Notes: generated by a model from the letters alone, not told the origin. A DNA stretch of 64,000 nucleotides from a bacterium HR35 (GCA_002898235.1 BEIL01000001.1:16034-80033); one strand, 5' to 3'. Positions 14,701-52,480 are shown, numbered from the stretch's first letter. Numbers and translations: made by a program.

Positions 14701-17700
14701 CAACCACTGTTACTAAAGCTTATACGATTTCTAATACTAATCGAGATGCAGAATCAATTGGAACCAGAATCTATACTCTTCCTTCGTCAGCTCCTTGGGG
14801 CCAAATGTATTTAGGTTATGATAGATATACTTCCGGTAAAGTTTACGATGGCGGTTGGATTTTTGAAACTGATATACCCAAAGGAGCTAAAATTGTTTCT
14901 TCAACTTTAACTTTAACAGCTAATTCAGACAACTACGGACCAATTAAACTCACAGGTTATTGGTATGGTTATGCTACTAGTAATCCTCCTGATTTTGTTA
15001 ATGGTTATTCTGGAAAAAGAATCTCCACCATTTATCCTCGAACATCTAATTATGTTTACCAATCGTTTTATGTAGTTAGTCAAGGACAAAAAATTATCTC
15101 CTCTAATTTAGCTAAAATTGTTCAAGAAATAGTAAATAGACCAGACTTTAAGGGAAAAATAGGATTAACTTTTAGAACTACAAATTCAAGCAACGTTTGG
15201 CAATCCTGGATAGATTATTCAGATGATCCAGCAAATTCAGCTATTCTCACAGTAGTTTATGAGGTTACTTCTACTCCTTCTTATCCTCCACTTTCTGTTT
15301 CTTGTTCAGCTTCTCCTAATCCAGCTAATATCAATCAAACAGTAACCTTTACTTCTTCAGTTTCTGGAGGTACAGGTTCTTATACTTATTCTTGGTCAGG
15401 AGCTTGTTCTGGTTCTTCTTCAACTTGTTCAACTTCCTTCTCTTCAGCTGGAACTTATACTGCTAACTTAACTGTTACTTCAGGTTCAGAAACAAAATCA
15501 ACTTCTTGTTCAGTAAATGTTCAAGTTCCTCAACCAGCACCTCTACCAACTGTTGATCTTAAAGTCAATAACTCTGATGGTCCAATTTCGATTACAGTTC
15601 CAACTTCAATTACTCTTAGCTGGACTTCTCAAAATGCTTCCTCTTGTACTGCTTCAGGTTCTTGGTCTGGTTCAAAATCAACTTCAGGTTCTCAATCAAT
15701 CTCTCTTTCTTCAGCTGGAACTTACACCTATACTTTAACTTGCACTAATTCTTCTGGTTCTGCTTCTGATTCAGTGACTGTTAATGCTCAATCAGCACCT
15801 ACACCAACAACGACAACTTTTGAGGAATGGACTCAATTTGCTCATGATCCTATGAGAACCTCCTATACTCCTCAGTTTGTCTCACCTCCTTGGAAATGGA
15901 AATGGAGTTGGAATGGTCCAGATGCTAATGGTAATCCTGTACCAGGTAAATTTAGATTGCCAAGAAACTCTCAACCAATTACTGGAGGGGGAAGAGTTTA
16001 TATAGCTGCTGGTTCAAGAGGAGTTTATGCTCTTAATAATTCAAATGGTTCTGTTATTTGGAATGTAAATCCAGGTGGAGCTCGAATTGATTCAACTCCA
16101 GCTTATGACCCTCAAACAGATGCTCTTTTTGTTCTTTCTTCTAATGGAACACTTTATAAACTTAATGCTAGTAATGGCTCTATTTTAGCTTCTTATTCTT
16201 CAGGACAAACAATTCCTAAAGGAGAAACAAATTTTCAAGACCCTAATCAAACCCTTCCTTTGCCTCCTCTTCTTTACGGAAATAGAGTTTACTTTGTAGC
16301 TGGTACTAAAATGTTTGCTCTTGATAAAAATAATCTTTCGGTTGTTTGGTCCTATGATTCCGGTGGTTCTCCATTTGTTACTCCAGTTGCCTATTCTCCT
16401 TCCTATAATAGATTAGTAGCTGTTACTCGAGATTTATATGTCAATGCTGTTGATGCTAATAGTGGTTCGCTTGTTTGGAGAACTAAACCGACAATAAGAA
16501 ATTATGGTGATCCAGGAGAGAATAATCAAACTTTAGCTCAAGCTGAATATGGCTGGCCTGTTATTGCTGAAAGAACCGGTTTAGTACTAATCAAATATAG
16601 ATTAGATTGGAATGCTCTTTTTAATCCTTTTAGTCCCTGGCCAACTGATAATGCTACCATAAGAGCTGGTTTAGAACAAAATCCTCAATATCAAGCTTTG
16701 TTTGCTTTAAGACTTTCTGATGGTTCAAAAGCTTTTACTGCTAATATTGGTCACGGAGGTTGGGGAGATGGCGGTTATCTACCAATGGGAAATATTCCAG
16801 CAGTTAAAAGCTTTCCCGATGGCTCTGAAGTTGCTTATCTTGTTATCAGAGGTCATCAAGCAATGGATGGTCGTTGGGATTCACTTTACGGAGAATTAGT
16901 CTTAGACAATAGCAATTCCAACTTTCAACCAGGTTATGTTAGATGGATTCAATATGGAAATTATGGTTGGTATAATCCTCCATTAAGCAATATTATGGTA
17001 CCGCCTACTGACGAACAACCTTATGTCATTATAGCTGGTAATTATTTATTCGGAGGTCACTGGATATTAGGTCAAGCTTTAGAAATAAAAGACCGCTCTT
17101 CTAATCTTGGCACTTATACTAACCCAATTAAATCAGCACCTCTTCCACATATTGTTGAATCAACTAATTTAGTACCTTACAATAGTTCTCATTATTCAGA
17201 TAGTATGATTGCTGCTACTGCTGGAGGAACTGAGTGGCGAGCTGTTCCTTATGGTTTTTACATTTATAACGATTCAGTTGGAAAAATTTATGATCAATAT
17301 TGGTCTGGTTATGCTACTTGGATAGTTAGCAATAATACTATTTACTTTCTTTCTACTGATGGAGCTTTAGTAGCTTTGGAGCAAGGTAATCCCACCCAAT
17401 TAACCGAAACAAGAAAAATCGTAATAAACGAAAATCTAATAAAAAACATTTCTTCTCTTGCTTCCCGTTTATTAGCACAAATTTCTCCTTCTAAACCTAT
17501 AGAAATTCAACCAGAAGATATATCTAAAAATTTTACTGAACTTTTAAATAAAGAAGTACTTTTAAGAGGAAAAATAATAAAAGTGGTTGCTAACCATCAT
17601 GGAACATTTATAAAACTCCACCAAACTCCGTATTCACCAACAATAATCATCAAACCTGATGTTTATTCTGAATTTTCAAAACCACCTTTTGAAATTTTCA

Positions 17701-17798
17701 AACCAGGAATGAATATTAAAGTAAAAGGAATATTGACTTATTATCGCGGAGATCCAGCAATTTATATAACCAATCCATCTCAAATTCTTTCCGAATAA
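11787..17798 (+). CDS. giant secreted multidomain protein: N-terminal beta-sandwich, GH clan-A-like catalytic domain, two PKD/Ig-like module pairs, PQQ-like beta-propeller, C-terminal OB-like domain
   Basis: Signal peptide. Clan GH-A-like acid/base and nucleophile motifs (FAWELNNEGPP and VLIGEHG). Two copies of a PKD-like pair (SCSASPNPANINQTVTFT..GGTGSYTYSW). Repeated propeller blades (RVYIAAGSRGVYALNNSNGSVIW; NRVYFVAGTKMFALDKNNLSVVW; LYVNAVDANSGSLVW). 2003 aa. Confidence 0.6.
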   Translation: MKRKYFGLTFLVLIPLFFSISQSSPVSLISSFPSSVRVYEKFEIKFNVNTAAENYFFSYDENPPAGVKPKIGVSVDGIFYHVESGKTYTQPAFWTVEVIRSGSGRNMIFEETNKSYWVLRFSPQKTGTYKVSIRVKDKNQDVTTYIGQFTALTPIRKGFIGVSKSDPRYFEFSNGELYFPIGPAWYDNKSSNPNASFGYSQYIGTGLNYERIWLAGIGAYSTNFARWISSAERMGNEGYMTLFAYDNGTGEKVPTYGELSYPLFYPDGFRFWLTTWGNEMLGPRLKAGQKYRVEIVYKTSNISGPRVSGYPYGFVVKAGTPDIMWRQHTISEFESFMRNSPNQILFPYDNQNHTWRTATYEFTATQGWQNIYLYLDNVSNGQVYIYKFSIKPVLSDGSLGGEVIRNPIADQHTYVDPRGAAFIDWLVEEAEKAGVYLQLVVHDKNDAIQNRLKMDGTWTDIFKGDGYYQPENTKARWLLRQWYRYLAARWGYSPNIFAWELNNEGPPDEDPPGSGTSPHWRTAQAFAQFMHTVDSHPHLASTSFWCCWRPQFWGNNTYFPDINYADVHEYTNNPQVAPQNYTYDEVSFIYSLGVNTAKDNVGKPVLIGEHGISGSNWMPVSELQQPNSGVYYHNMLWAQLNSAQIFAPDYWYSDHLRYINREEISKPFAKFVSNLDVNKGGYVNLQASVSNSKLRVLGQKNLYLNKAYGWIQNTDYTWYNAYRNYYTYQSGQVRIKLNPNYDYLIEWWDTYTGVTSTQTQRSDYQGYVTLNINNLKTDVAFKIYPLSGSTPSYPPLSVSCSASPNPANINQTVTFTASVSGGTGSYTYSWSGACSGSSSTCSTSFSSAGTYTANLTVTSGSETKSTSCSVNVQVPQPAPLPTVDLKVNNSDGPISITVPTSITLSWTSQNASSCTASGSWSGSKSTSGSQSISLSSAGTYNYTLTCTNSSGSASDSVTVNAQSASIIINQTTTTVTKAYTISNTNRDAESIGTRIYTLPSSAPWGQMYLGYDRYTSGKVYDGGWIFETDIPKGAKIVSSTLTLTANSDNYGPIKLTGYWYGYATSNPPDFVNGYSGKRISTIYPRTSNYVYQSFYVVSQGQKIISSNLAKIVQEIVNRPDFKGKIGLTFRTTNSSNVWQSWIDYSDDPANSAILTVVYEVTSTPSYPPLSVSCSASPNPANINQTVTFTSSVSGGTGSYTYSWSGACSGSSSTCSTSFSSAGTYTANLTVTSGSETKSTSCSVNVQVPQPAPLPTVDLKVNNSDGPISITVPTSITLSWTSQNASSCTASGSWSGSKSTSGSQSISLSSAGTYTYTLTCTNSSGSASDSVTVNAQSAPTPTTTTFEEWTQFAHDPMRTSYTPQFVSPPWKWKWSWNGPDANGNPVPGKFRLPRNSQPITGGGRVYIAAGSRGVYALNNSNGSVIWNVNPGGARIDSTPAYDPQTDALFVLSSNGTLYKLNASNGSILASYSSGQTIPKGETNFQDPNQTLPLPPLLYGNRVYFVAGTKMFALDKNNLSVVWSYDSGGSPFVTPVAYSPSYNRLVAVTRDLYVNAVDANSGSLVWRTKPTIRNYGDPGENNQTLAQAEYGWPVIAERTGLVLIKYRLDWNALFNPFSPWPTDNATIRAGLEQNPQYQALFALRLSDGSKAFTANIGHGGWGDGGYLPMGNIPAVKSFPDGSEVAYLVIRGHQAMDGRWDSLYGELVLDNSNSNFQPGYVRWIQYGNYGWYNPPLSNIMVPPTDEQPYVIIAGNYLFGGHWILGQALEIKDRSSNLGTYTNPIKSAPLPHIVESTNLVPYNSSHYSDSMIAATAGGTEWRAVPYGFYIYNDSVGKIYDQYWSGYATWIVSNNTIYFLSTDGALVALEQGNPTQLTETRKIVINENLIKNISSLASRLLAQISPSKPIEIQPEDISKNFTELLNKEVLLRGKIIKVVANHHGTFIKLHQTPYSPTIIIKPDVYSEFSKPPFEIFKPGMNIKVKGILTYYRGDPAIYITNPSQILSE
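14155..14676 (+). repeat. copy 1 of a roughly 520 bp direct repeat (PKD/Ig module pair) inside the 2003 aa gene
   Basis: Near-identical to 15272-15793, with only about 5 substitutions. The copies are 1117 nt apart. The six-frame track shows the same minor ORF twice (14398-14619 and 15517-15738), differing by 1 aa. Confidence 0.85.
15272..15793 (+). repeat. copy 2 of the roughly 520 bp direct repeat
   Basis: See copy 1. Confidence 0.85.
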
Positions 17799-36323: not shown

Positions 36324-37604
36324 ATGAAAAAACAAATAGTAATTTTAGGAGGAGGATTTGGTGGTGTTTATACTTTAAAATATTTGCATAAATTTTTTCA
36401 TAAACGCGGACTAAGGCAGACTGAACGCGGACTTACGCAGACAAGTATTAAATTAGTATTGGTGAATAGAAAAAATTATTTTATTTTTACGCCCTTGCTT
36501 CATGAAGTTGTTACTGGTGGAGTTTCAATTGATAATGCTTTAGAACCAATAAGAGAAATTATTAAATGCTGTGATTTTGATTTTATTCATGGAGAAGTTG
36601 AGAAAATTAATTTAGAAAATAAAATTGTTTATATTAATAAAGAAAAAGAAAATTATAAAGTTAATTATGATTATTTAGTTATTGCTTTAGGTTCAAAAAC
36701 AAATTATTATAATATTCCCGGTGCTAAAGAATATACTTTTTCGTTAAAAACAATTGATGATGCTATCAGATTGAAAAATCATTTTGTTCATATGTTTGAA
36801 TTAGCGAGTATATCGCAGAGTGAAGCAGCGATTAATAAATATTTAACTTTTGTAATCGTTGGGGGAGGAGCAACTGGAGTTGAGCTTGCTGGTGAAATGA
36901 GTGATTTGTTTTATAAAACTTTTAGCAAATTTTACCCACCAGCTTTAATTTCTCAAGTTAAAATCATCTTAGTTGAAAAGGGTAAAGAATTGATTCCTCA
37001 ATTTTCTCCCAAATTAAGACAAAAAGCATTAGAAAGATTAAAAAAATTAAAAGTTGATGTTAGATTAGAAAGAGGAGTTGTTGAAGTTGGTGAAGATTTT
37101 ATTAAACTTGATGATGGTAATATTATTGAAACAAAAACAGTTATTTGGGCAGCAGGAGTTGAACCAAATTTACCAGAAATCATTGGCAATGTTGAAAAAG
37201 ACAGTAGAGGGAGATTGGTTTTGAATGAATATTTACAAGTAAAAAATTATAATGATGTTTTTGCTATTGGTGATGTTTGTTGTTTTATTCAGGATCAAAA
37301 ACCTTTACCTCAATTAGCTCAAGTTGCAGTTAGACAAGCAAAAACAGTTGCTTTAAATATTAAAAACTCAATTGAAAATAAACCATTAGAAAAGTTTATC
37401 TACAAGCACACAGGCGACTTAATTTCAGTTGGTAGATTTTATGCTCTGGGTGAAATTAAAGGAATTGAATTTTCAGGTTTAATCAGTTGGTTTATTTGGA
37501 AAGGAGTTTATTTAACTAAAATGATTTCCTTTAGGGATCAAGTAAAAACATTTATTGATTGGTTTTTAAACCTATTTTTACCAAGAGATATAACTGAACT
37601 CTAA
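36324..37604 (+). CDS. ndh: type II NADH dehydrogenase / FAD-dependent pyridine-nucleotide-disulfide oxidoreductase
   Basis: Two Rossmann motifs, VILGGGFGGVY and IVGGGATGVELAGE. Contains a roughly 14 aa atypical insert RGLRQTERGLTQTS just after the first motif. Confidence 0.75.
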   Translation: MKKQIVILGGGFGGVYTLKYLHKFFHKRGLRQTERGLTQTSIKLVLVNRKNYFIFTPLLHEVVTGGVSIDNALEPIREIIKCCDFDFIHGEVEKINLENKIVYINKEKENYKVNYDYLVIALGSKTNYYNIPGAKEYTFSLKTIDDAIRLKNHFVHMFELASISQSEAAINKYLTFVIVGGGATGVELAGEMSDLFYKTFSKFYPPALISQVKIILVEKGKELIPQFSPKLRQKALERLKKLKVDVRLERGVVEVGEDFIKLDDGNIIETKTVIWAAGVEPNLPEIIGNVEKDSRGRLVLNEYLQVKNYNDVFAIGDVCCFIQDQKPLPQLAQVAVRQAKTVALNIKNSIENKPLEKFIYKHTGDLISVGRFYALGEIKGIEFSGLISWFIWKGVYLTKMISFRDQVKTFIDWFLNLFLPRDITEL

Positions 37605-40254: not shown

Positions 40255-40267
40255 TTCAATAACATTA

Positions 40268-40311
40268 TAGTAATTCAATAGTAATACAATAGTAATACAG
40301 TAGTAATCAAA
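40268..40311. repeat. 11 bp tandem repeat, four copies (TAGTAAT[T/A]CA[A/G])
   Basis: tagtaattcaa tagtaatacaa tagtaatacag tagtaatcaaaa, directly after the tktN stop. Confidence 0.8.
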
Positions 40312-40342: not shown

Positions 40343-41632
40343 ATGAGTTGGCTTATGGAAAAAAAGTATATTTTGATAGTATTATTTTTGCTTTTCTTGG
40401 GGCTAGTTTTAATTAAGCAAACAAAAATTAGAGCAGAAATCGCTTATTTTTATCCTCAAAGTTGTTTAGGAAGTTTTATTAATCCTGAAAAAGCCCAAGG
40501 AAAGCCCGAAGTTGATAATCCTGATTTAATAAATGAATCAAATTCTGCTGTTTATTTAGGCGGTTTTAAAGAAATTTATTGTGGAAATTTTCAAGGACCA
40601 GAAGTACAAGGCGAAATAAAGAAAATAACATTACATTTTAATTGGATTGTTACTAAAGAAAGGAGAGAAGCAGTTCTAACTGAACCAACCTCAACAAACG
40701 ATTCAAATATTTTAGAAAAAATTATTCCTCCGAAAACAATAGAAATAATACCAGCAACTCCAACAACTGAAACAGCACCTTTACCAAATACCACTCCAAC
40801 ACCAGAAGCAACCTCGACACCTCAGTCATCTTTTAACACGGATTCACGCGGATTATTATTACACGGATATACACGGAAATTATTTAACCTAGATAAAAAT
40901 TATCTAGATATCTTATTTTGGTGGAAAACAACTTTTGCTGAAGAAATGGCAACACCAATAGAATCGACAACACCTACAACCTTAACAACAACTCCATCAG
41001 AAGCTCAAAATCAATCAACTGAAACTCAATCAATAATAATTACAACAACTCCTACATCTACAGAAAATCAAACCGAAACAACCTCTTCTACTACAAGTAC
41101 TGAAGCATTGACTACTCCAACAACCTCAGAAACAACTTCATTAACAACCTCAACTCCTCCTAAAACTCTATTTGAAGTCCATTACACTTTGGATGGTGAA
41201 AATTGGACTTATCTTGGAGATATTAAAACGCAGACTAACGCAGACAACACGCAGACTAACGCAGACAACTATTTTATTCCCGATGTTTCTTTTGAAATAC
41301 CAGTAAATAATTGGCTTGATATTTCAAAAATTCAAATAAAAATCAATTCTTTACCTGATACTGACTACTATCTTTATTTAGAATCAATGTGGTTTGAAGT
41401 TGAATATGAACTTCCGCAAGCAACATCAACTATTTCAGAAATAACAAATTTTGTTGGTGGCACTATAAGTTCTTTAACAGAAAATTTTTCTAATGATACT
41501 TCTACATTGTCAGAAACCTCAACATCTTATGGCGAAGATGATGAAGAAATTTTAACTCCAACAAATTTAGAAAATGCTACTCCTACTCCTCATTACCTCC
41601 TCTTAAACAAAGAAAATATACTAAAGAAATAA
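40343..41632 (+). CDS. secreted Thr/Ser/Pro-rich (mucin-like) surface protein
   Basis: N-terminal signal anchor and long T/S/P low-complexity linkers. Contains in-frame short repeats (40836-40878 and 41228-41269). Confidence 0.4.
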   Translation: MSWLMEKKYILIVLFLLFLGLVLIKQTKIRAEIAYFYPQSCLGSFINPEKAQGKPEVDNPDLINESNSAVYLGGFKEIYCGNFQGPEVQGEIKKITLHFNWIVTKERREAVLTEPTSTNDSNILEKIIPPKTIEIIPATPTTETAPLPNTTPTPEATSTPQSSFNTDSRGLLLHGYTRKLFNLDKNYLDILFWWKTTFAEEMATPIESTTPTTLTTTPSEAQNQSTETQSIIITTTPTSTENQTETTSSTTSTEALTTPTTSETTSLTTSTPPKTLFEVHYTLDGENWTYLGDIKTQTNADNTQTNADNYFIPDVSFEIPVNNWLDISKIQIKINSLPDTDYYLYLESMWFEVEYELPQATSTISEITNFVGGTISSLTENFSNDTSTLSETSTSYGEDDEEILTPTNLENATPTPHYLLLNKENILKK

Positions 41633-41988
41633 AAATTCAAAATCCTGACAATATTTCTTGTAAAATAGAGCCATTTTCAATTGAAGTTAAAGAAGAAGAA
41701 ACAAAAACAGCCAATTTAATAATTTCAGCAAATAACACAAAAAACATTGAAATCGGAAGCTTGCCTTCAGGAATAGACATTCAATTAGAAAATAATAATT
41801 ACGAAATGCAAACATCAAATAATTCAATTCAACTAAAAATATATCGTCAACAAGGTTCAGACAAAGGCAACTTCAATATTCCAATAATCCTTTCCTCAGG
41901 CAATTCAACAATAATTTGTCAAATGAATATCATAGCATTTTAGTAGCTAGTAGCTAGTAATTAGTATCTAGTAGCTAGTAGTAGTAAG

Positions 41989-42336
41989 ATGAAAACAAAA
42001 TCTTTTAAGGAATTAATAGTTTGGCAAAGAGCAAAAGAATTAGCAATAGAAGTATATAAATTAACATCAAAATTTCCAAAGTCAGAGCTTTTTGGATTAA
42101 CAAACCAAATGAGAAGAGCTTCAATTTCTATTTCTTCAAATATTGCTGAAAGTTATCATCGCTTCCATTCTAAAGAGAAAAAACAATTTTTAGCAGTTGC
42201 CTTTGGCTCTGGAGCAGAATTAGAAAGCCAAATTGAAATTGCTAAATCACTTTTTCCAAATTTAGATTATTCAAAAGTAGAAACATTACTTGCAGATATA
42301 ATGAAAATTTTAAATAAAATTATTAATAAAAAATGA
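41989..42336 (+). CDS. four-helix-bundle protein of the 23S rRNA intervening-sequence protein / Avd family
   Basis: WQRAKELAIEVYKLTSKFPKSELFGLTNQMRRASISISSNIAEG is the characteristic motif of this family. The stop overlaps the next start (ATGA). Confidence 0.7.
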   Translation: MKTKSFKELIVWQRAKELAIEVYKLTSKFPKSELFGLTNQMRRASISISSNIAESYHRFHSKEKKQFLAVAFGSGAELESQIEIAKSLFPNLDYSKVETLLADIMKILNKIINKK

Positions 42337-45300
42337 AAAAAAATCATCCAAAATTATCTACTAGATTCTACTTACTATCTACTAGATTCTTAGTTTTATT
42401 ACTTTTAATTTCAATGTTCTTTTTCGGTTATCCTGTTATTTGGAAAAATCCAAGAATACCACCAAAGATTAAGGAAGCACAGGCGGCAATTAGTTTTATT
42501 GGAAGCGTTGAAGGATCAGCAGCAAACGGCGGCGATGTCACGCTTAGCCTTTCCGGTCTTGGACTCCAAGAAGGCGACCTCGTCATCGTGGCCTATGCCA
42601 TTGGAGATAATGATAACGTGAATTTCAACATGGCAATACTATCGCCAGCTGGTTATACCGAGGTTGCCGACTTACATTCCGATGATACACAAGATGTTGA
42701 TCTCGGTGTTTACTGGAAAGTTATGGGAGCCACACCAGACACATCTGTTACGGTAGATGGTTTAGGAGGAACTGATGCTTCAGTGGCAGCAGTGGCAATG
42801 GCTTTCCGGGGTGTTGATCCCGCAACTCCAATGGATGTGATTCCAACTACGGCAACTGGCATTAATACTATGCATCCCAATCCCCCAGCAATAGACTATG
42901 TAAGCACCGGTGTCTGGACAGTTATTGCGGGAGCAAGTGGGCATGCGCTTAATTTAGCTAATACTAACAATCCCTATACTTTCCCATCAGGATATACAAC
43001 AGATAATGTTCAACGACCTGAAAATGATACAAGCGATGTGACAGTTGGATTGGGATACAGAACAAATCCCGCTGATCCCGAGGATCCTGGCGTTATGACA
43101 CACAGCGGAACTGACAGCACAAGTTACTCGTGGGCTGCAGTTACAATTGCTTTAAGACCCAAACCACCTTCTACTTTTAATCAATCAGCTTATAGATTTT
43201 TTAATAATCTTGATTCAACTGATGTTGGTTCTCCTTTAGCCAATCAAAATACTCCAGCAAGCTTAACTTCAGCTGGTCAAGCATTTAGATTGAGATTACT
43301 TATTCATGTAGGAACATCAAATCTGTTGGAAAATGAACAAAGTTTCAAACTTCAATTTGGTACCTCTACTGGTTCATCTTGTACTTCTTCACCACCTGCT
43401 TCTTGGGCTGATGTTACAACTTCAACACCAATAGCTTTTAATGACAACCCAACACCAGCTGATGGTGCTACTTTAACTGCTAATACTAATGACCCAACTC
43501 ATGGAGCTGATATTATTGTCAATCAAACCTATGAAGAATTAAATAATTTTACAAACTCTGTCTCTTCAATTAACGCTGGCGAAGATGGTAAATGGGACTT
43601 TTCATTAAAAGATAATGGTGCTCCAGCTGGTACTACTTATTGTTTAAGAGTTGTAAAAGCTGATGGAACTTTATTAGATACTTATTCAGTTATTCCTCAA
43701 ATTACAACCGCCGCAGCTCCAATTTTATCAGCTTATAGATTTTTTAATAATTTAGATTCAACTGATGTTGGTTCTCCTTTAGCTAATCAAGATACAGCTG
43801 CAACTTTAACTTCAGCTGGTCAAGCTTTTAGATTAAGACTTTTACTTCATTTACCCTCGGGTTTAAATTTCAATTCTCCCACTTCTTCAAATAATTTAAT
43901 AGAATCTGGATTAATTCCAGCTGGCTCTGGTGGTGGTAGAATTAGAATAGCTGCGCCTACTCCCAATAGATTATACTTGGTTTATTATGATATGACTAAT
44001 CTAGATTTAAGATTCTGTCGAAGTACTAATGGTGGAGTGAGTTGGAGTTGTAATGCAATTGAATCGACTGGTGATGTAGGCGTAACTCCGGATATTTATG
44101 CTCTTGATGAAAACAATATATTTATTACTCATAGAGATGCAACAAATGGTAATTTAAGATTTTGTAAAAGTAGTAATGGTGGTTTAAATTTTTCTTGTTC
44201 TATTCTTGAAGCTGGTTGGCAGGGGTTTGATTCTTCTATTAAAGCTATTTCAACTTCAACAATTTTTGTTTCTTACGCTCCAGCTCCAGCAAATTTTAGC
44301 TATTCAATTTTGAGATTTTGCCGAACAACTGATGGTGGTAACACCTGGAATTGCTCAGATGTTGAAGGAAATACAACAACTCAATATGGTTGGTATTCAT
44401 CTTTAGATGCAGTTGATTCTAATAATATTTATATTGCCCACTATGATGGGATCAATTTAGATTTAAGATTTTGTCGGACTTCAAACGGTGGAACAACTTG
44501 GAATTGTGGTGTAATTGAAACTACAGGTGATATAGGAAGAAAACCATCTATAAAAGCTTTTAACAATAATTATATTTATATAGCACATCGAGACGAAACA
44601 AATAATCAATTAAGATTTTGTCGAACTACAGATGGAGGAACTAGTTGGAATTGTAATGCAATAGAAATCGGAGGTTTTTCTTCTTCTTTAAAAATAGTTG
44701 ATAAAGATGTAGTTTATATAGCCCATTTTGATTTTACAAATGCTTCTATAAGACTTTGTAATACTAATAATGGTGGACAAACTTGGAGCTGTTCTACAAT
44801 TGCTAATGCTCCCCCTACTCTTACTTCTGGTGAAAATTTAAGTCTTTCTTTAGATTTACTTGATCCTTATATGATTTATGTAGCTTATGGTTTTACTACT
44901 GATTCTTCTAATGAGGTAAGATTGTATAAATATACAGGGAATGATTTTTTTAAACTTCAATATTCAGTTATGTCTGGAACTTGTGATACTTCATTTTCTG
45001 GTGAAGTTTATAATGATGTAGGTTTCGATACCCCTATTGCTTTTTATAATAATAACACTACAAGTGATGCCTCGACTCCAACTACTAACACCAATGATCC
45101 AACTCATGGTACTGATACAATTGTTTATCAAACTTATAAAGAAAAAAAATTTTTTACAAATAGAACGAACATTTTTTCGGGAAGTGATGGTTTATGGGAT
45201 TTTGTTTTGAGAGATAATAACGCTCCTTCAAATACAACTTATTGTTTAAGAGTTGTAAAAGCAGATGGAAGCTTACTTCAGGGTTACAATGTTATCCCTC

Positions 45301-45797
45301 AAATTACAACTGCAGCAGCTGCACCGATTACTTGTACTTTTTCAGCAACTTCAACTTCATTTTCAAGTTTATCTCCTTCAGCTGTTTCAACTTCTTCTCC
45401 TGATATAACTATTACTGTTACTTCTTCAGCTGGTTTTATAATTTCTGTAAATGATGCAGGTAATGGAACTAACCCAGGTCTTTATAAATCAACCTCGCCA
45501 ACATATCTAATTCCTTCTCCAAATTCTTCTTATACAGCAACTGCTACTTTAGTGGCTGGGGTAGATGGTTATGGAATTCAAGCAACAACTACAAATTCAA
45601 ATATAAGTATTAATCCAAGATACAATGTTAGTGGAGATACTGTTGGAGGACTAACTACAACAACTATTACTTTGGCAAGTTCTTCAGTTGCTGTTTCTTC
45701 GGCTCAAATTACAATTAAACATAAAGCAGCAGTTTCAAGTTTAGCACCAACAGGCAATTATCAAGATACAATAACATATAGCTGTACAAGTCCATAG
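42333..45797 (+). CDS. large surface protein with N-terminal signal anchor, a compositionally atypical N-terminal domain, duplicated YRFFNNLDSTDVGSPLANQ segments, a BNR/Asp-box beta-propeller and a C-terminal domain shared with the next gene
   Basis: Six BNR-like blades (LRFCRSTNGGVSWSC, LRFCKSSNGGLNFSC, LRFCRTTDGGNTWNC, LRFCRTSNGGTTWNC, LRFCRTTDGGTSWNC, IRLCNTNNGGQTWSC). 1154 aa. Confidence 0.55.
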   Translation: MKKNHPKLSTRFYLLSTRFLVLLLLISMFFFGYPVIWKNPRIPPKIKEAQAAISFIGSVEGSAANGGDVTLSLSGLGLQEGDLVIVAYAIGDNDNVNFNMAILSPAGYTEVADLHSDDTQDVDLGVYWKVMGATPDTSVTVDGLGGTDASVAAVAMAFRGVDPATPMDVIPTTATGINTMHPNPPAIDYVSTGVWTVIAGASGHALNLANTNNPYTFPSGYTTDNVQRPENDTSDVTVGLGYRTNPADPEDPGVMTHSGTDSTSYSWAAVTIALRPKPPSTFNQSAYRFFNNLDSTDVGSPLANQNTPASLTSAGQAFRLRLLIHVGTSNLLENEQSFKLQFGTSTGSSCTSSPPASWADVTTSTPIAFNDNPTPADGATLTANTNDPTHGADIIVNQTYEELNNFTNSVSSINAGEDGKWDFSLKDNGAPAGTTYCLRVVKADGTLLDTYSVIPQITTAAAPILSAYRFFNNLDSTDVGSPLANQDTAATLTSAGQAFRLRLLLHLPSGLNFNSPTSSNNLIESGLIPAGSGGGRIRIAAPTPNRLYLVYYDMTNLDLRFCRSTNGGVSWSCNAIESTGDVGVTPDIYALDENNIFITHRDATNGNLRFCKSSNGGLNFSCSILEAGWQGFDSSIKAISTSTIFVSYAPAPANFSYSILRFCRTTDGGNTWNCSDVEGNTTTQYGWYSSLDAVDSNNIYIAHYDGINLDLRFCRTSNGGTTWNCGVIETTGDIGRKPSIKAFNNNYIYIAHRDETNNQLRFCRTTDGGTSWNCNAIEIGGFSSSLKIVDKDVVYIAHFDFTNASIRLCNTNNGGQTWSCSTIANAPPTLTSGENLSLSLDLLDPYMIYVAYGFTTDSSNEVRLYKYTGNDFFKLQYSVMSGTCDTSFSGEVYNDVGFDTPIAFYNNNTTSDASTPTTNTNDPTHGTDTIVYQTYKEKKFFTNRTNIFSGSDGLWDFVLRDNNAPSNTTYCLRVVKADGSLLQGYNVIPQITTAAAAPITCTFSATSTSFSSLSPSAVSTSSPDITITVTSSAGFIISVNDAGNGTNPGLYKSTSPTYLIPSPNSSYTATATLVAGVDGYGIQATTTNSNISINPRYNVSGDTVGGLTTTTITLASSSVAVSSAQITIKHKAAVSSLAPTGNYQDTITYSCTSP

Positions 45798-45957
45798 TTA
45801 GTAGCTAGTAATTAGTAATTAGTAACTAATAGTAATGCAATAAAAAAATTTTTTTGACAAAATATGATATAATTTTAGTAAAATAAGCTCGCCCTGTAGT
45901 GAAACGAATTTTCTACTACAGGGGTAGAAGGGTCGAAAATTAAATAAAAAAAATCAA

Positions 45958-46593
45958 ATGGAAAAGGAAAATCAAACACAAAATTTAATTCTTTTGATAG
46001 GCATATTTTTAACTATTTATTTTGTTTATGAACTTTTTATTCTACCATCAGGACTTTTAAGAGCACAAACTAATGTGACGGTTACAGCAACCGTAACAAC
46101 AACTGTAACTTGTAATCCTGCAACAACTACTACTAATTTTGGCACTATTGATGCAAGTGCTGTTTATACTTCTTCTCCTAATGTAATTACCACTGTTTCT
46201 TGTAATCCTGCAGCAGGATGTAATGTTACTATTAGGGATCAAGGTTCAGGAACTCAACCAGGTTTATGGAATTCAACAGCTTCTTATCTAATTCCTTCAC
46301 CAAATGCTTCTTTTTCAGCAACAGCAACTTTAGTAGCTGGAACAGAAGGTTATGGAATTCAAGCAACAACAACTTCAGCTGGCTCAGGAGGAACTCTTTC
46401 TTTAAATTCAAGATATGTTCAAACAGGAAATACTGTCGGAGGATTGACAACAACCACAATTCAATTAGCTTCTTCAACCGAGCCAGTAGCAAATAGAGAA
46501 ATTGTTGTTACTCATAAAGTAGCAATCTCAGGTTTAACCAGAGCAGGTAATTATCAAGACATAATTACATATAGCTGTGCAAGTAATTTTTAG
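45958..46593 (+). CDS. secreted paralog of the C-terminal domain of the preceding 1154 aa protein
   Basis: Signal anchor. About 60% aa identity to the last roughly 170 aa of ORF 42333-45797 (shared PGLWNST..YLIPSPN..ATATLVAG..GYGIQATTT..TVGGLTTTTI..GNYQDxITYSC). Confidence 0.45.
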   Translation: MEKENQTQNLILLIGIFLTIYFVYELFILPSGLLRAQTNVTVTATVTTTVTCNPATTTTNFGTIDASAVYTSSPNVITTVSCNPAAGCNVTIRDQGSGTQPGLWNSTASYLIPSPNASFSATATLVAGTEGYGIQATTTSAGSGGTLSLNSRYVQTGNTVGGLTTTTIQLASSTEPVANREIVVTHKVAISGLTRAGNYQDIITYSCASNF

Positions 46594-46655
46594 TATCTAG
46601 TAGTTAGAATTTAGTAAATAGCAATGAATCAAAAAAGTAAAGAAAAAAATTAAAA

Positions 46656-47534: not shown

Positions 47535-48581
47535 ATGAATTTAAAAAATTTTTTCAATGTTGTTTTAATAATTTTCTTCTCGTTTTTATTACTTTATGCT
47601 TTTAATTATTTAAAATCTGCAGGTGTAACTATTAAAGCTTTTGTGCCTGGAGTTTGTGGCAATAATCTTAAAGAACCAGGAGAAGAATGTGATGGTCCTG
47701 ATTTAGGAGGTCAAAGCTGCGTTTCTTTAGGTTATTCAGGAGGAACTTTGTCTTGTAATTCTAATTGTACTTTTAATGCTTCACAATGCACTATCTCCCC
47801 GCCAAGTGGAGGAGGCGGAGGCGGTGGAGCATATATACCTCCTTATGGAACAGTTATTCTTTCAGGAAGAGCCCAACCAAATTCTGATGTTACTTTAATT
47901 TCAGATGGCCAAATAAGAACAATTATCAAAGCTGATACTGATGGAAAATTTAAATTTACTCTTTCCAACCTAACCCCAGGCAATTATATTTTTACTTTAT
48001 ATGCTGAAGATACTGAGGGAAGAAGGACAAGCTTACATTCAGTTCCAGCAGTAGTTACCGCAGGTCTTACAATTGAAATAGGTAATATTTTTCTTTCACC
48101 AACAATTGATATTGATAAAATACAAGTTAAGCGTGGAGATATTTTAAGAATTTTTGGTCAAACAGCTCCTGATTCTAATGTTTTGATTGTTGTTTCTTCT
48201 GAAGAAGAATTATATTTTCAAACTCAAGCAGAAAAAGATGGAAGTTATTTATATGCCTTAGATACTACAATTTTAGATTATGGCCAGCATTTTACAAAAT
48301 CAAGATCAATTTTAGCCAATCAATTAGTTAGTTCTTTTTCAAAAGCTTTAGCATTTCAGGTTTCAACAACTTCGGTAGTTAAAAAACCAACAAAATGTCC
48401 ATTAAAAGGTGATTTAAACAATGATTGCAGAGTAAATTTGATTGATTTTTCAATTGCTGCTTATTGGTATAAAAGAAAATTAAGTCCAAATTTTGCTAAA
48501 ATTGAAAAAGAGAAATTAAACGGAGATGGAAAGGTCGATTTGGTTGATTTTAGTATTATGGCGTATTGGTGGACGGGATAA
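47535..48581 (+). CDS. dockerin-containing surface protein (N-terminal signal anchor, Cys-rich repeat, Gly linker, Ig-like region, C-terminal dockerin)
   Basis: Two dockerin-type Ca-binding segments, DLNNDCRVNLIDFSIAAYW and LNGDGKVDLVDFSIMAYW. A CGNNLKEPGEECDGPDLGGQSC Cys-rich repeat. Confidence 0.55.
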   Translation: MNLKNFFNVVLIIFFSFLLLYAFNYLKSAGVTIKAFVPGVCGNNLKEPGEECDGPDLGGQSCVSLGYSGGTLSCNSNCTFNASQCTISPPSGGGGGGGAYIPPYGTVILSGRAQPNSDVTLISDGQIRTIIKADTDGKFKFTLSNLTPGNYIFTLYAEDTEGRRTSLHSVPAVVTAGLTIEIGNIFLSPTIDIDKIQVKRGDILRIFGQTAPDSNVLIVVSSEEELYFQTQAEKDGSYLYALDTTILDYGQHFTKSRSILANQLVSSFSKALAFQVSTTSVVKKPTKCPLKGDLNNDCRVNLIDFSIAAYWYKRKLSPNFAKIEKEKLNGDGKVDLVDFSIMAYWWTG

Positions 48582-48584
48582 TAG

Positions 48585-48800
48585 ATGTTTCGCGAGTTGG
48601 CTTTTATATATCGCACACACGCCTATGAGCACCGGCACTCAACTTCCTCCAGCGGCAAGTTGGTGCCTCGTGGTCTCGGCTCAAAAACTTTGCCATCTGC
48701 TGAAAGCAGACTGGCAAAGACCAAGCTTTTTAAGCCTCCGACACGTGCTCTACGGCGTGGTGCTCGACAAAATGTCTGCGTCAGTCTGCGTTTTATACAA
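48585..48800. other. 220 bp GC-rich (about 50% GC) intergenic element with internal inverted repeats
   Basis: Sharp composition jump versus flanks. Hairpin potential in GGCACTCAACTT...AAGTTGGTGCC and GCAGACTG...CAGTCTGC. Ends with GTCTGCGTCAGTCTGCGTT, the reverse complement of the ACGCAGAC motif seen in in-frame insertions elsewhere. Confidence 0.5.
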
Positions 48801-48802
48801 AA

Positions 48803-49621
48803 ATGGCAAAAATTTATTTACAAATAGATAAGGAAGTGAATACTAATTATTTCACAGTTCCTATTTATCTTGACACCGAAGGTGAATCAGTTAATGCTTT
48901 TGAAGTGAAGATAAAAACATCTAACAATTTGATTTTTAGAGATTATTTAGAAAAAGATTCAATTATTAGTTATTGGATTGAAAAACCTTCAATTAAAGAA
49001 AATATTTTGTCATTTTCAGGAATTACTCCAGGTGGTTATATTGGTAAAAAGGGTTTGTTGGTAAATTTAATTTTTGAAGCTAAACAAAACGGACAAGCTT
49101 TTATTGAAATTTTACCTTCATCACAAATTTTACTAAACGATGGTTTAGGAACTAAGGCAGGATTAAAAACAGATAGATATGAATTTTTGTTAAATATTAC
49201 TCAAACTCAAAAAATAAGCATTGAAGACCGTTATCCTCCAGAACCATTTAAAATTTATCCTCAAAGAAATAAGGAAATTTTTAACAATAAGTATTACATT
49301 ATTTTTGAGGCTAAAGATAAACAATCAGGTATAGCTTATTATGAAGCTGCTGAAGTTCCTATCTGTATAAATCTAGGTTTAACCTGCGAAAATCCTCGTT
49401 TTGAAAAAGTCTCATCTCCATATCTTTTAAAAGATCAATCTTTAAGAAGCTATATTTATGTTAAAGCAGTTGATCGAGCAGGAAATGAAAGAATTGAAAT
49501 TTTAAAACCACAAAGATTGTTTTTAGCTGAAGAAATTTTGTTTTTCTTTATTTTTAGTAGTTTGTTTATTTTAGGAATCATTTTTTATAATAAAATTAAA
49601 TGGCATTTAAGAATAAAATAA
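48803..49621 (+). CDS. cohesin-like domain protein with C-terminal TM anchor; N-terminal signal peptide apparently missing
   Basis: Cohesin-like N-domain aligns with that of the next gene (AKIYLQIDKEVNTNYFTVPIYLDT vs ASIYLSPAQKTVNVGDSFSIVVYVES, then LVNLIFEAKQNGQAFIEIL...LLNDGLG). An Ig-like ...SGIAYY...VDRAGN domain. The ORF begins exactly at the mature-domain boundary, immediately after the GC-rich element. Confidence 0.45.
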   Translation: MAKIYLQIDKEVNTNYFTVPIYLDTEGESVNAFEVKIKTSNNLIFRDYLEKDSIISYWIEKPSIKENILSFSGITPGGYIGKKGLLVNLIFEAKQNGQAFIEILPSSQILLNDGLGTKAGLKTDRYEFLLNITQTQKISIEDRYPPEPFKIYPQRNKEIFNNKYYIIFEAKDKQSGIAYYEAAEVPICINLGLTCENPRFEKVSSPYLLKDQSLRSYIYVKAVDRAGNERIEILKPQRLFLAEEILFFFIFSSLFILGIIFYNKIKWHLRIK

Positions 49622-51322: not shown

Positions 51323-52480
51323 ATGCTTAATCCAGAATTAAAATTGAATCCAAAAATTTTTGATGAAGATATTGAGCAAAAGCCAATTAGAGATGGTTAT
51401 AGTGATGCTTTGGTTGAGCTTGGAGAAAAAAATCCTGATGTTGTTGTTTTAACTGCTGATTTAGCTGAATCAACCAGAGCTCATAAATTTGCCGAAAAAT
51501 TTCCTGAAAGATTTATTGAATGCGGAGTGGCTGAACAAAATATGGCTGGTATTGCTGCTGGTTTAGGTGTAAGTGGTAAAATTGCTTTTATTTCCTCTTA
51601 TGCAACTTTTTCTCCTGGCAAAAATTGGGAAACAATTAGAACAACAATAATTTATAATGATTCAAATGTAAAAATTGCCGGTCATCATTCAGGAATTGTT
51701 ACTGGTCCTGATGGTGCCACTCATCAAGCAACCGAAGATATAGCTATTATGAGATGCTTACCGAATGTTAGAATAATTTCTCCTTGTGACTTTTGGGAAG
51801 CAAAAAAAGCAACTTTATATTCAGCAGAAGTTTATGGTCCTTTTTATATTAGATATGTAAGAGATAAAACACCTATAATAACAACAGAAGAAACACCTTT
51901 TAGATTTGGAAAAATTGAAGAATTCTGGATACCAAACACAGACCATACACGGACTATACACGGACAGAACAGACAAAATAATAAGTCCGAACAGTCTGAG
52001 TCTAGTCCGAATCAGTCCGTGTTAAGTCCAAACAAGTCCGTGTCTAGTCCGAACAAGTCCGTGAGTATGCAGAATAACGCAGATAAAAATATAGTTGCTA
52101 TTTTTGCAACTGGACATCTAGTTTATCAGGCACTTTTGGCTGCTAAAGAATTAGAAGAGGAGGGAATAGATGTTTATGTTTTGAATGTTCATACAATAAA
52201 ACCACTTGATGTTGAAAAAATTTTTGAAATTGCAAAAAAAGTTAGAGGAATAGTTACTTTAGAAGACCACCAAGTTCAAGGAGGAATGGGAAGCGCAATT
52301 AGTGAAGCTTTAATGAATATTGATTTTCAAAAACAATATGGCCTTTTTTCTGTTCCTCCGATTAAATTTTTAGGACTTCAAAATACTTTTGGTGAATCGG
52401 GCAAACCCAATGAATTAATTCAAAAATATGGAATGGATAAAGAGGCAGTAAAAAAGGCGGTTTATGAGTTTCTTAAATGA
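51323..52480 (+). CDS. transketolase, C-terminal subunit of a split enzyme, with a roughly 50 aa low-complexity in-frame insertion
   Basis: Pyrimidine-binding and C-terminal transketolase domains (FIECGVAEQNMAGIAAG, GPDGATHQATEDIAIMR). Insertion PNTDHTRTIHGQNRQNNKSEQSESSPNQSVLSPNKSVSSPNKSVSMQNNADKN at nt 51935-52090. Confidence 0.8.
   Translation: MLNPELKLNPKIFDEDIEQKPIRDGYSDALVELGEKNPDVVVLTADLAESTRAHKFAEKFPERFIECGVAEQNMAGIAAGLGVSGKIAFISSYATFSPGKNWETIRTTIIYNDSNVKIAGHHSGIVTGPDGATHQATEDIAIMRCLPNVRIISPCDFWEAKKATLYSAEVYGPFYIRYVRDKTPIITTEETPFRFGKIEEFWIPNTDHTRTIHGQNRQNNKSEQSESSPNQSVLSPNKSVSSPNKSVSMQNNADKNIVAIFATGHLVYQALLAAKELEEEGIDVYVLNVHTIKPLDVEKIFEIAKKVRGIVTLEDHQVQGGMGSAISEALMNIDFQKQYGLFSVPPIKFLGLQNTFGESGKPNELIQKYGMDKEAVKKAVYEFLK

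What the first reader, a model, noticed from the sequence alone, without database searches (positions are those of the whole stretch)
36400..36445. Same motif family (ACGCGGACT / GCAGAC) inserted in-frame in ndh
The sequence aaacgcggactaaggcagactgaacgcggacttacgcagaca encodes RGLRQTERGLTQTS right after the first FAD-binding motif of NDH-2. This is the third independent gene in the window carrying a member of this GC-rich short-repeat family. The in-frame preservation in essential genes suggests either selection for frame-neutral insertions or a mechanism that inserts multiples of 3.
Basis: seen in the sequence. Interest (0 to 1): 0.55.

Follow-up and report, generated by a model that had tools for sequence, protein, structure and literature searches.

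The report
Mobile-element repeat arm inside ndh
The GC-rich repeat in the NADH dehydrogenase gene is most likely a leftover end of a tiny, nuclease-carrying selfish DNA element that, in these ultra-small bacteria, sits in-frame inside housekeeping genes and is apparently just translated as an extra surface loop.

Summary
Window 36403-36442 holds four 10/11-bp units (core CGCRGAC, 2 x 21 bp) in ndh, encoding RGLRQTERGLTQT. The motif family is about 12-fold over chance in the window. It is a net +11-codon insertion in a predicted disordered loop, and it is absent from the closest orthologues.

I think it is one arm of a repeat-armed element. In many genomes, arrays of the same units in inverted orientation flank a ~120-aa GxxExxY (PF13366, PD-(D/E)XK) nuclease ORF. 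This held for 39/75 such genes against 0/39 controls. ORF-less copies are dispersed within Desulfobacterales genomes.

In Patescibacteria the whole element, nuclease included, sits in-frame and without a stop codon inside RecG, LepA, GatB, LeuRS, RtcB, NDH-2 and transketolase. A relative carries a full element at exactly the site where this window's tkt has an ORF-less palindromic copy. The ndh array matches the left arm of an ORF-bearing copy at 37/44 bases.

In-frame survival fits selection. The cores cannot encode stops, and in-gene arrays are enriched for a 21-bp period (p = 3e-9). The mobility mechanism is inferred, not shown. My ten full-text searches found no description of this architecture.

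The parts
36403..36442 (+). The flagged array: four forward units (ACGCGGAC-TA, AGGCAGAC-TGA, ACGCGGAC-TT, ACGCAGAC-AA) spaced 10/11/10 bp, giving 2 x 21 bp. It has one arm only, with no inverted partner and no ORF.
   Evidence: No RNA structure (z = +0.30). Ungapped match of 37/44 to the left arm of an ORF-bearing element (L204), and 36/44 to window 41225-41268.
36324..37604 (+). Host gene ndh (type II NADH dehydrogenase, 426 aa). The insert corresponds to residues ~28-41, between helix 12-30 and strand 42-48 of the first Rossmann fold.
   Evidence: AlphaFold model: residues 29-39 have pLDDT below 50 and are coil. Orthologue alignment A1.
41228..41269 (+). Four perfect ACGCAGAC units (21-bp period x 2.0) encoding TQTNADNTQTNADN in hypothetical ORF 40343-41632. 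The core is read in different frames from those used in ndh.
40836..40884 (+). Forward array of CACGGAT/CGCGGAT-type units in the same ORF (peptide NTDSRGLLLHGYTRK).
51936..51974 (+). Left (forward) arm of an ORF-less palindromic insert in the transketolase C-subunit gene: ACACAGAC, ACACGGAC x2, AACAGAC.
   Evidence: The whole insert, 51935-52093, is 159 nt (53 codons). It lies between Pfam Transket_pyr (ends at residue 183) and Transketolase_C (starts at residue 255).
51983..52063 (-). Right arm of the tkt insert: about 8 reverse units (GTCCGTG/GTCCGAA/GTCTGAG), 21-bp period x 3.9. It pairs with the left arm.
   Evidence: RNA fold z = -4.5. A relative (L129) has a full GxxExxY element at exactly this site.
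52067..52084 (+). Two further forward units (ATGCAGAA, ACGCAGAT) at the end of the tkt insert.
48774..48791 (-). Two reverse units (GTCTGCGTCAGTCTGCGT), intergenic, just 3' of a conserved structured GC-rich stretch. They are absent from the homologous place in L129.
41940..42395 (+). A sister element with the same architecture but a different cargo and unit. It has a four-helix-bundle ('23S rRNA IVS protein', TIGR02436/PF05635) ORF at 41989-42336. A forward TAGTAGC/CTAGTAG array (41940-41988) lies on its left and an inverted CTACTAG array (42357-42395) on its right.

Best explanation
The ndh repeat is a decayed, one-armed, ORF-less remnant of a small selfish DNA element.

Architecture of the element:
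- The complete form is about 0.45-0.7 kb.
- It has two inverted arms, each built of 3 or more tandem units. Each unit has a 6-7-nt core, C[G/A]C[A/G]GA[C/T], and units are phased 9-11 bp apart.
- The arms flank a single ~120-aa GxxExxY PD-(D/E)XK nuclease gene.

Shown:
- This architecture recurs across phyla.
- ORF-less derivatives are dispersed, multi-copy repeats.
- In Patescibacteria both full and ORF-less copies sit in-frame inside housekeeping genes, at loops.
- Insertion states differ between close orthologues.

Inferred:
- The element inserted into the loop after helix alpha-A of NDH-2.
- Only a length of 3n without stops survived in a needed gene. Stop-free cores and a 21-bp (7-codon) double-unit period make this easy, and the period also keeps later slippage in frame.
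- The nuclease ORF and right arm were lost by deletion, or were never present in this copy.
- The remaining 42 nt are translated as a disordered surface loop with no role for the host.

Inferred more weakly:
- The nuclease binds the phased units in the arms and drives spread, either by cleavage followed by repair-mediated copying (homing-like) or by transposition.
For: 1. The family is real and over-represented in the window.

2. The orthologue KatS3mg094 carries, at another ndh loop, forward CGCAGAC units, an in-frame GxxExxY domain (TIGR04256 E = 4e-35; PF13366 E = 1e-33) and reverse GTCTGCG units.

3. Complete stand-alone copies, with their own start and stop codons and 3+3 inverted units, occur in Desulfobacterales MAGs L099 and L045 and in many metagenome loci.

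4. Of 75 GxxExxY genes from metagenomes, 39 have the same 6-mer tandemly repeated upstream and its reverse complement tandemly repeated downstream. Windows displaced by 500 bp give 0/39 (p = 8e-10). Spacing peaks at 10 bp.

5. ORF-less copies recur on several contigs of single MAGs and across species.

6. In-frame life in CPR:
- LepA, RecG and transketolase fusions are found in DNA loci L124-L129.
- Of the 50 best of 7567 relatives of P0121, 44 are 200 aa or longer.
- All 20 long hits examined contain the nuclease domain, and 19 are fusions with RecG, LepA/GTPase, GatB, LeuRS, RtcB, Wzy or glycosyltransferases.
- Their flanks read TQTNAD/RGLTQ on the left and RKSA/RESA on the right, the same peptides as in ndh.

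7. L129, a close relative, has a full element exactly where this window's tkt has the ORF-less palindrome.

8. The ndh array matches the left arm of ORF-bearing element L204 at 37/44 bases in the same 10/11/10 register. It aligns unit by unit with the start of a longer insert at the same ndh site in L003, while three closer orthologues are empty.

9. The 21-bp period is enriched inside genes.

10. The insert lies in a low-confidence coil of the NDH-2 model.

11. Nuclease residues E..D..ExK are invariant in in-frame and stand-alone copies alike. The predicted fold resembles Cas4 and lambda-exonuclease-type nucleases.
Against: - No GxxExxY gene or remnant is detectable in this 64-kb window, and the rest of the HR35 genome was not available. 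No autonomous source in this organism is shown.
- The ndh copy has no second arm, no terminal inverted repeat and no recognisable target-site duplication. Its assignment rests on similarity and context.
- Empty-versus-filled comparisons gave no clean boundaries.
- Units differ between sister genomes at the same site (GGAC versus GAAC). Common descent and independent hits on a permissive loop therefore cannot be separated.
- Mobility, nuclease-arm recognition and translation of the insert are all untested.
- A second, unrelated cargo (four-helix-bundle protein) sits between analogous arrays. This weakens the idea that the cargo protein is the mobilising enzyme.
- The protein-database sample of fusions is biased toward in-frame cases.
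Confidence: 0.7

Rival explanations
1. The arrays come first and the ORFs come second. Inverted tandem arrays spread or arise by some other machinery. Small ORFs (GxxExxY, four-helix-bundle) later invade or home into them. On this view the ndh array never contained a nuclease gene.
For: ORF-less and one-armed arrays greatly outnumber ORF-bearing ones. Two unrelated cargo families sit between analogous arrays. No nuclease gene is found in the window.
Against: ORF-less Desulfobacterales copies keep the hairpins and the 'CCCGAAGGGCA' remnant of the ORF's 3' end, as expected of deletion derivatives. Array geometry differs by cargo: 9-11 bp core plus spacer for GxxExxY, contiguous 7-8-mers for four-helix-bundle genes. 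That fits cis-specific pairing.
Confidence: 0.15
2. This is a local minisatellite. The 21-bp repeat arose in place by replication slippage and has nothing to do with mobile DNA.
For: It is a head-to-tail repeat with a period divisible by three, as in many intragenic VNTRs.
Against: The same core occurs in several unrelated genes of the window on both strands and in different frames. It also occurs in at least 120 stretches of other genomes, including as inverted arms around a nuclease gene. The GC-rich unit is foreign to a 28% GC genome.
Confidence: 0.04
3. The repeat serves the host. It could act as phased DNA-binding sites (for example for a nucleoid, uptake or regulatory protein) or as a selected flexible peptide linker in NDH-2.
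For: The 10-11 bp phasing equals one helical turn, typical of arrays bound on one face of DNA. The site is occupied in many NDH-2 orthologues.
Against: The peptide is not conserved. The same DNA core is read as RGL/RQT, TQT/NAD or SA/KSA depending on frame and strand. The closest orthologues lack it. The predicted loop is disordered. Positions in genes are scattered, not regulatory.
Confidence: 0.06
4. The insert is removed or skipped and never reaches the protein. This could happen by RNase III-type excision, as for rRNA intervening sequences, or by programmed translational bypass, as for GC-rich 'byp' elements in yeast mitochondria.
For: Classical 23S rRNA IVSs have the same build (inverted arms with heptameric repeats plus a four-helix-bundle ORF) and are cut out by RNase III (PMC4990558). 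The paired-arm inserts fold strongly as RNA (z = -4.5 and -7.1).
Against: The ndh insert has no fold (z = +0.30). It is 3n long and free of stops. Full-length in-gene copies have lost the nuclease stop codon and stay in frame with host domains on both sides, which removal would not require. RNase III cutting without ligation would destroy an mRNA.
Confidence: 0.04

Closest known systems
Rickettsia palindromic elements (RPEs)
   Same: Short repeated elements found many times inside unrelated protein-coding genes, in-frame and translated as extra surface peptides, in a reduced AT-rich genome. Their mobility mechanism is unknown (MITE review PMC10969869).
   Different: RPEs are ~100-150-bp unique palindromic consensus sequences with no known autonomous partner, and they are confined to Rickettsia. 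Here the arms are tandem arrays of 9-11-bp units, full copies carry a PD-(D/E)XK nuclease gene, and the family spans Patescibacteria, Desulfobacterota and other phyla. Sequence homology to RPEs was not tested.
Bacterial 23S rRNA intervening sequences (IVS) with the S23p / four-helix-bundle ORF
   Same: A small element (~430-450 nt in Coxiella) with terminal inverted repeats, heptameric direct repeats next to the ORF, and one small ORF. Its origin and mobility are unresolved (PMC4990558). The window's own 41940-42395 element has this build. 23S_rRNA_IVP ORFs occur in CPR rRNA insertions (PMC11270868).
   Different: IVSs sit in rRNA helices and are excised by RNase III. The ndh, tkt, RecG and LepA copies sit in mRNA coding sequence, remain in frame, and mostly carry (or derive from copies carrying) a GxxExxY nuclease rather than the four-helix-bundle protein.
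Inteins / homing-endonuclease genes in conserved sites of essential proteins
   Same: A nuclease-encoding selfish insert lying in-frame in RecG, LepA, GatB, LeuRS, RtcB and similar genes. The same host site is occupied recurrently in different lineages.
   Different: There is no Hint/splicing domain (Pfam finds only PDDEXK_3 plus host domains). The nuclease is PD-(D/E)XK, not LAGLIDADG or HNH. The insert has repeat arms. It is apparently tolerated as a loop domain rather than spliced out.
[quoted passage not shown]
   Same: ORF-less copies of 150-280 bp with inverted ends and internal hairpins, in many copies per genome, related to a longer ORF-bearing form.
   Different: The putative autonomous partner is a ~120-aa nuclease, not a known transposase family. 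The ends are tandem sub-repeat arrays. A target-site duplication could not be established.
GC clusters and 'byp' elements of yeast mitochondria
   Same: GC-rich short mobile inserts in very AT-rich genomes, sometimes inside coding sequence.
   Different: Byps break the frame and are bypassed by the ribosome. These inserts are 3n and stop-free. This comparison rests on my own knowledge of those systems and was not tested here.

Membership tests
   The ndh array has 4 units spaced 10/11/10. The class spacing histogram peaks at 10 bp.
   No reverse units follow 36442 and there is no fold (z = +0.30). The feature is met by the tkt copy at 51936-52063.
   tblastn and blastx find none in the window. 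It is present in orthologue L002 ndh, in L129 tkt and in L204.
   37/44 ungapped to the L204 left arm; 32/44 to the L002 left arm.
   Site 1 is empty in P0003, P0004 and P0005, carries one arm in HR35, and carries longer or two-armed forms in P0002, P0045 and P0051.
Rickettsia palindromic elements | In-frame insertion in protein-coding genes, translated | tested here: inconclusive
   In-frame and stop-free is shown. Translation of the insert was not tested.
Rickettsia palindromic elements | Homology to an RPE consensus | not tested
   No RPE sequences were compared. The unit structure is unlike the RPE descriptions in PMC10969869.
23S rRNA intervening sequence | Located in an rRNA helix and excised by RNase III | tested here: not met
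   It lies in the ndh coding sequence, and the window contains no rRNA. Excision cannot be tested with these tools.
23S rRNA intervening sequence | Inverted terminal repeats plus an S23p/four-helix-bundle ORF | tested here: not met
   Not met for the ndh array. Met by the neighbouring element at 41940-42395.
MITE | Terminal inverted repeats and a target-site duplication | tested here: inconclusive
   The family has inverted arms. The ends are often flanked by TTA...TAA, but this is itself palindromic. Filled-versus-empty comparisons gave no clean duplication.
MITE | Multi-copy, dispersed, no transposase of its own | tested here: met
   Several contigs per MAG carry copies: MAG8 (L043, L061, L071, L122) and Bin_272 (L069, L085, L102, L121), with 80-90% identity over 100-250 bp.
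Intein | Hint/protein-splicing domain | tested here: not met
   Pfam on P0003 and on 20 fusion proteins finds PDDEXK_3 and host domains only. By contrast, a true intein in L003 PPDK is recognised.
Translational-bypass (byp) elements | The insert disrupts the frame or carries stops that must be bypassed | tested here: not met
   The array is 42 nt, the net insertion is +33 nt, and there is no stop.
Simple intragenic VNTR | The repeat is confined to and generated at one locus | tested here: not met
   The same units occur at 5 or more window sites and in at least 120 stretches of other genomes.

The most novel reading that the evidence does not exclude
The flagged motif may be the visible trace of a so-far undescribed superfamily of minimal selfish elements. 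Each has phased tandem-repeat inverted arms around a single ~120-aa PD-(D/E)XK (GxxExxY) ORF or a four-helix-bundle ORF. The superfamily would include the classical rRNA intervening sequences, whose origin has been unresolved for decades. It would also include a Patescibacteria lineage that occupies the intein niche (RecG, LepA, GatB, LeuRS, RtcB, NDH-2, transketolase) without any splicing, being tolerated as translated loop domains. The nuclease would recognise its own arms and spread by homing or transposition.
Probability: 0.45. Interest if true: 0.85.

Novelty: new variant of a known kind. Interest (0 to 1): 0.7.

Why it matters
If this reading holds, four things follow.
- The two large 'function unknown' families (GxxExxY/PF13366 and the 23S-IVS four-helix-bundle protein) gain a concrete genomic role as cargo of one class of repeat-armed selfish elements.
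- The long-open question of where rRNA intervening sequences come from gets a testable answer.
- The many unexplained length differences and low-complexity loops in Patescibacteria housekeeping proteins are explained. This matters for annotation, alignment and phylogeny of these lineages.
- It provides a second, mechanistically tractable example, after the Rickettsia RPEs, of selfish DNA reshaping essential proteins. Here there is an identifiable nuclease to test.

A ~120-aa nuclease with short, programmable-looking phased recognition units might also interest tool builders.

Tried and rejected
- Rfam on the whole window and on 48500-48900 gave only tRNAs and nothing for the repeat regions.
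- I considered a link to diversity-generating retroelements, because the 41989 ORF hits bAvd weakly. No reverse transcriptase was seen next to it. ORF 42333-45797 has only a weak BNR_2 match below cut-off. I did not pursue this.
- I considered a CRISPR-like array for the 66-bp-period repeat in L017. It is a tandem array of the element end plus a constant spacer, not repeats with varied spacers.
- I tried to define a target-site duplication from filled-versus-empty ndh sites and from MAG8 copies. The boundaries are blurred or palindromic.
- Element length modulo 3 for intergenic copies was not informative, because the true ends are uncertain.
- The word-indexed protein search with the nuclease domain returned only 65 stand-alone proteins and none from HR35. 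The exhaustive search was needed to see the fusions.
- PADLOC gave no defence-system hit beyond weak Cas4 similarity.
- No PDB relative was found by sequence.
- The ten literature searches (one search was rejected for a term-format error) found no description of the architecture. 'GxxExxY' occurs in 3 papers and 'PDDEXK_3' in 1, with function given as unknown.
- The 18 high-GC actinobacterial hits of the genome scan were not examined and may be unrelated coding repeats.

Full report
**Observation**

The window is a 28% GC stretch of 'bacterium HR35', a Parcubacteria-type MAG. The NDH-2 protein is 100% identical to that record. An independent Logan assembly of run DRR101367 carries the same DNA, differing by one base. 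At 36403-36442, inside ndh (36324-37604, +), there are four units: ACGCGGAC-TA, AGGCAGAC-TGA, ACGCGGAC-TT and ACGCAGAC-AA. They are spaced 10/11/10 bp, which gives two 21-bp double units, and they encode RGLRQTERGLTQT right after the GGGFGG motif.

The motif is not a chance feature. ACGCGGACT with up to one mismatch occurs 11 times against 0.89 expected, and the largest count in 100 shuffles was 3. Other members are:
- 41228-41269: four perfect units, encoding TQTNADN x2.
- 40836-40884, in ORF 40343.
- 51936-52084, in the transketolase C-subunit gene: forward units, then about eight reverse units.
- 48774-48791: two reverse units, intergenic.

The core is read in different frames in different genes, so the conserved object is DNA, not peptide.

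**The ndh site in relatives**

I aligned 35 NDH-2 orthologues. The family has about five loops where hypervariable low-complexity inserts occur. Lengths range from 404 to 622 aa. The peptides are those expected from forward units (TQTNAD, RGLTRI, ADLTQT) or reverse units (SAKSA, SAESAF, SQQESA).

Site 1, the flagged site, has these states:
- Empty in the three orthologues P0003, P0004 and P0005.
- One-armed in HR35.
- Two-armed or longer in others.

At the DNA level the HR35 array aligns unit by unit with the first four units of a 200-nt insert at the same site in GCA_026004515. That genome's units read GAAC instead of GGAC/AGAC. The net gain relative to the empty allele is 33 nt. An AlphaFold model places residues 29-39 in a coil with pLDDT below 50, between helix 12-30 and strand 42-48. 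The insert has no RNA or DNA fold of its own (z = +0.30).

**What the repeat belongs to**

In KatS3mg094 ndh, another loop carries three things in one open frame: a run of forward GCGCAGAC/ACGCAGAC units, a complete GxxExxY domain, and a run of reverse AGTCTGCG units. The domain scores TIGR04256 E = 4e-35 and PF13366 PDDEXK_3 E = 1e-33.

I scanned one genome per species for three phased units. By record title, 54 are Desulfobacterota-type MAGs, at least 13 are named Patescibacteria, and 18 are high-GC actinobacteria that I did not examine.

Desulfobacterales MAGs hold complete stand-alone copies (L099, L045). Their order is: (TTA)GCCGCAGAC-N3-CGCAGAC-N3-CGCAGAC, a GGCCG...CGGCC hairpin, a ~120-aa GxxExxY ORF with its own start and stop, a second hairpin, and then three inverted units. 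The whole is about 550 bp. The same genomes hold ORF-less copies of 150-280 bp that keep the hairpins and the 3' remnant of the ORF. These copies recur on several contigs of single MAGs at 80-90% identity.

To test generality I fetched 80 metagenome loci with a GxxExxY profile. In 39 of 75 usable loci, the same 6-mer is tandemly repeated upstream and its reverse complement is tandemly repeated downstream. Windows displaced by 500 bp gave 0 of 39 (p = 8e-10). Units differ between elements (CGCAGAC, CGCGGAC, CACGGAT, CACGAAT, CACAGAT and others). They share the pattern C-R-C-R-G-A, and spacing peaks at 10 bp.

Four-helix-bundle ('23S rRNA IVS protein') genes show the same build with other units, which are contiguous 7-8-mers. 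This held in 5 of 6 loci, including the window's own copy at 41940-42395. The Coxiella IVS paper describes a 28-bp terminal inverted-repeat stem and a variable number of heptameric repeats next to the S23p ORF. It states that the origin of IVSs is unresolved (PMC4990558).

**In-frame life in Patescibacteria**

Among the metagenome loci, the closest relatives of the KatS3mg094 domain are embedded in long ORFs:
- LepA, at the beta-hairpin before DTPGH: L124, L126 and L128, and also L090.
- RecG, between DEQHRFG and the TATPIPRT motif: L125 and L127.
- Transketolase: L129.

L129 comes from a 29% GC organism whose tkt flanks align closely with HR35's. Its full element starts after the same host bases (TTTGGATACCA) and ends before the same bases (GTxGCxATTTTTGC) as the 159-nt ORF-less palindrome in this window's tkt. 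That is a direct link between a full element and its derivative at one orthologous site.

An exhaustive search with a stand-alone member (P0121) found 7567 relatives. Of the best 50, 44 are 200 aa or longer and 28 have the domain in the interior. All 20 long hits I scanned contain PDDEXK_3. Nineteen of them are fusions that split RecG (x7), LepA/EF-Tu-type GTPases (x4), GatB (x2), Wzy (x2), LeuRS, RtcB, GT2 or GT4; one has no other recognisable domain. None has a Hint domain. Their flanks read TQTNAD/RGLTQ on the left and RKSA/RESA on the right. The ndh peptide is therefore a typical left-arm peptide.

These in-frame copies form a subfamily (GLGHKE...YDxAR) that lacks a stop codon but keeps E30, E40, D69, E79 and K81. 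The predicted fold (pLDDT 87) is nearest to Cas4 and lambda-exonuclease-type nucleases. A stand-alone copy abutting rbfA (L204) has a left arm reading ACGCGGACCA-ACGCGGACTAA-ACGCTGACTC-ACGCAGACAA. This matches the ndh array at 37/44 bases without gaps.

**Why the insertions are in frame**

The forward core has no T and its complement has no A, so no stop codon can fall within a core in any frame. In genomes below 60% GC, arrays lying in open frames of 200 aa or more have adjacent spacings summing to 21 bp in 28/52 cases. Other arrays do so in 8/94 cases and are mostly 10+10 (p = 2.6e-9). A 7-codon period also keeps later slippage in frame. This favours selection over a mechanism that inserts multiples of three.

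**Rivals**

- Local slippage cannot explain the spread across genes and phyla or the inverted arms.
- A host function is unlikely. The peptides vary, the closest orthologues lack the insert, and the loop is disordered.
- RNA-level removal or ribosomal bypass is not needed for a 3n, stop-free insert. It would also not select for loss of the nuclease stop codon.
- The strongest rival is that the arrays are primary and the ORFs invade them later. I cannot exclude it.

**Limits**

No target-site duplication could be defined. Mobility, binding of the arms and translation of the insert are all inferred. Ten full-text searches found no description of this architecture, but the library is incomplete.

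Noticed in passing
window 48613-48766: A GC-rich, strongly folding intergenic stretch (z = -5.6) with no Rfam match. A homologue in L129 (4640-4805) shares a consensus structure of 40 pairs, 10 of them with compensatory double changes. It is probably an unannotated structured RNA gene. The two reverse repeat units at 48774-48791 sit just 3' of it and are missing in L129.
   Followed up: partly
window 40262-40307, 41940-41988, 45797-45837, 46589-46625: Forward arrays of TAG/TAA-rich units (TAGTAGC, TAGTAAT, ATAGTAATACA). Three start at or right after an ORF's stop codon; the one at 40262-40307 lies just upstream of ORF 40343. All are in the same orientation, next to successive surface-protein-like ORFs. 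Only the one at 41940 has an inverted partner (42357-42395), around the four-helix-bundle gene. The role of the solo arrays is unknown.
   Followed up: partly
window 41591: The window lacks one T relative to the Logan contig L001 (CCT versus CCTT). This truncates ORF 40343 at 41632 (429 aa) instead of 41944 (529 aa). It is either an assembly error or a real frameshift.
   Followed up: yes
window 36810-36833: At ndh 'site 3', where KatS3mg094 carries the full nuclease element, HR35 reads ATATCGCAGAGTGAAGCAGCGATT (ISQSEAAI). This contains CGCAGAG/GCAGCG and is 2 codons longer than in empty orthologues. It may be the footprint of an earlier insert.
   Followed up: no
L003 1-3476: The sister genome's PPDK gene carries a true intein (Intein_splicing plus LAGLIDADG_3) and also a CGCAGAAC-type array at 2536-2564. 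Spliced and unspliced selfish inserts therefore coexist in one gene.
   Followed up: no
L017 7626-8000: In a Desulfatiglandales genome, the 3-unit element end plus a constant ~39-bp spacer is itself tandemly repeated with a 66-bp period, at least 5 times. It looks like a satellite built from an element terminus.
   Followed up: no
L067 1900-2400 and 2714-3170: One glycosyltransferase-like ORF appears to carry two GxxExxY inserts with different arm units (CCGAAT/ATTCGG and CGCAGAC/GTCTGCG). This would fit each nuclease travelling with its own unit type. I did not verify that a single open frame spans both.
   Followed up: partly
P0192 (LeuRS representative): Besides the GxxExxY insert, this LeuRS carries a NUDIX domain (residues 301-419) after the editing domain. 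This is another domain-level insertion in a CPR-type housekeeping protein.
   Followed up: no
window 11787-17798 and 42333-45797: Two very large ORFs (2003 and 1154 aa) have clearly higher GC (0.32-0.37, with patches at or above 50% at 42493-43168) than the rest of the window. The first also has internal duplications (14296-14317 matches 15415-15436). I did not examine them.
   Followed up: no
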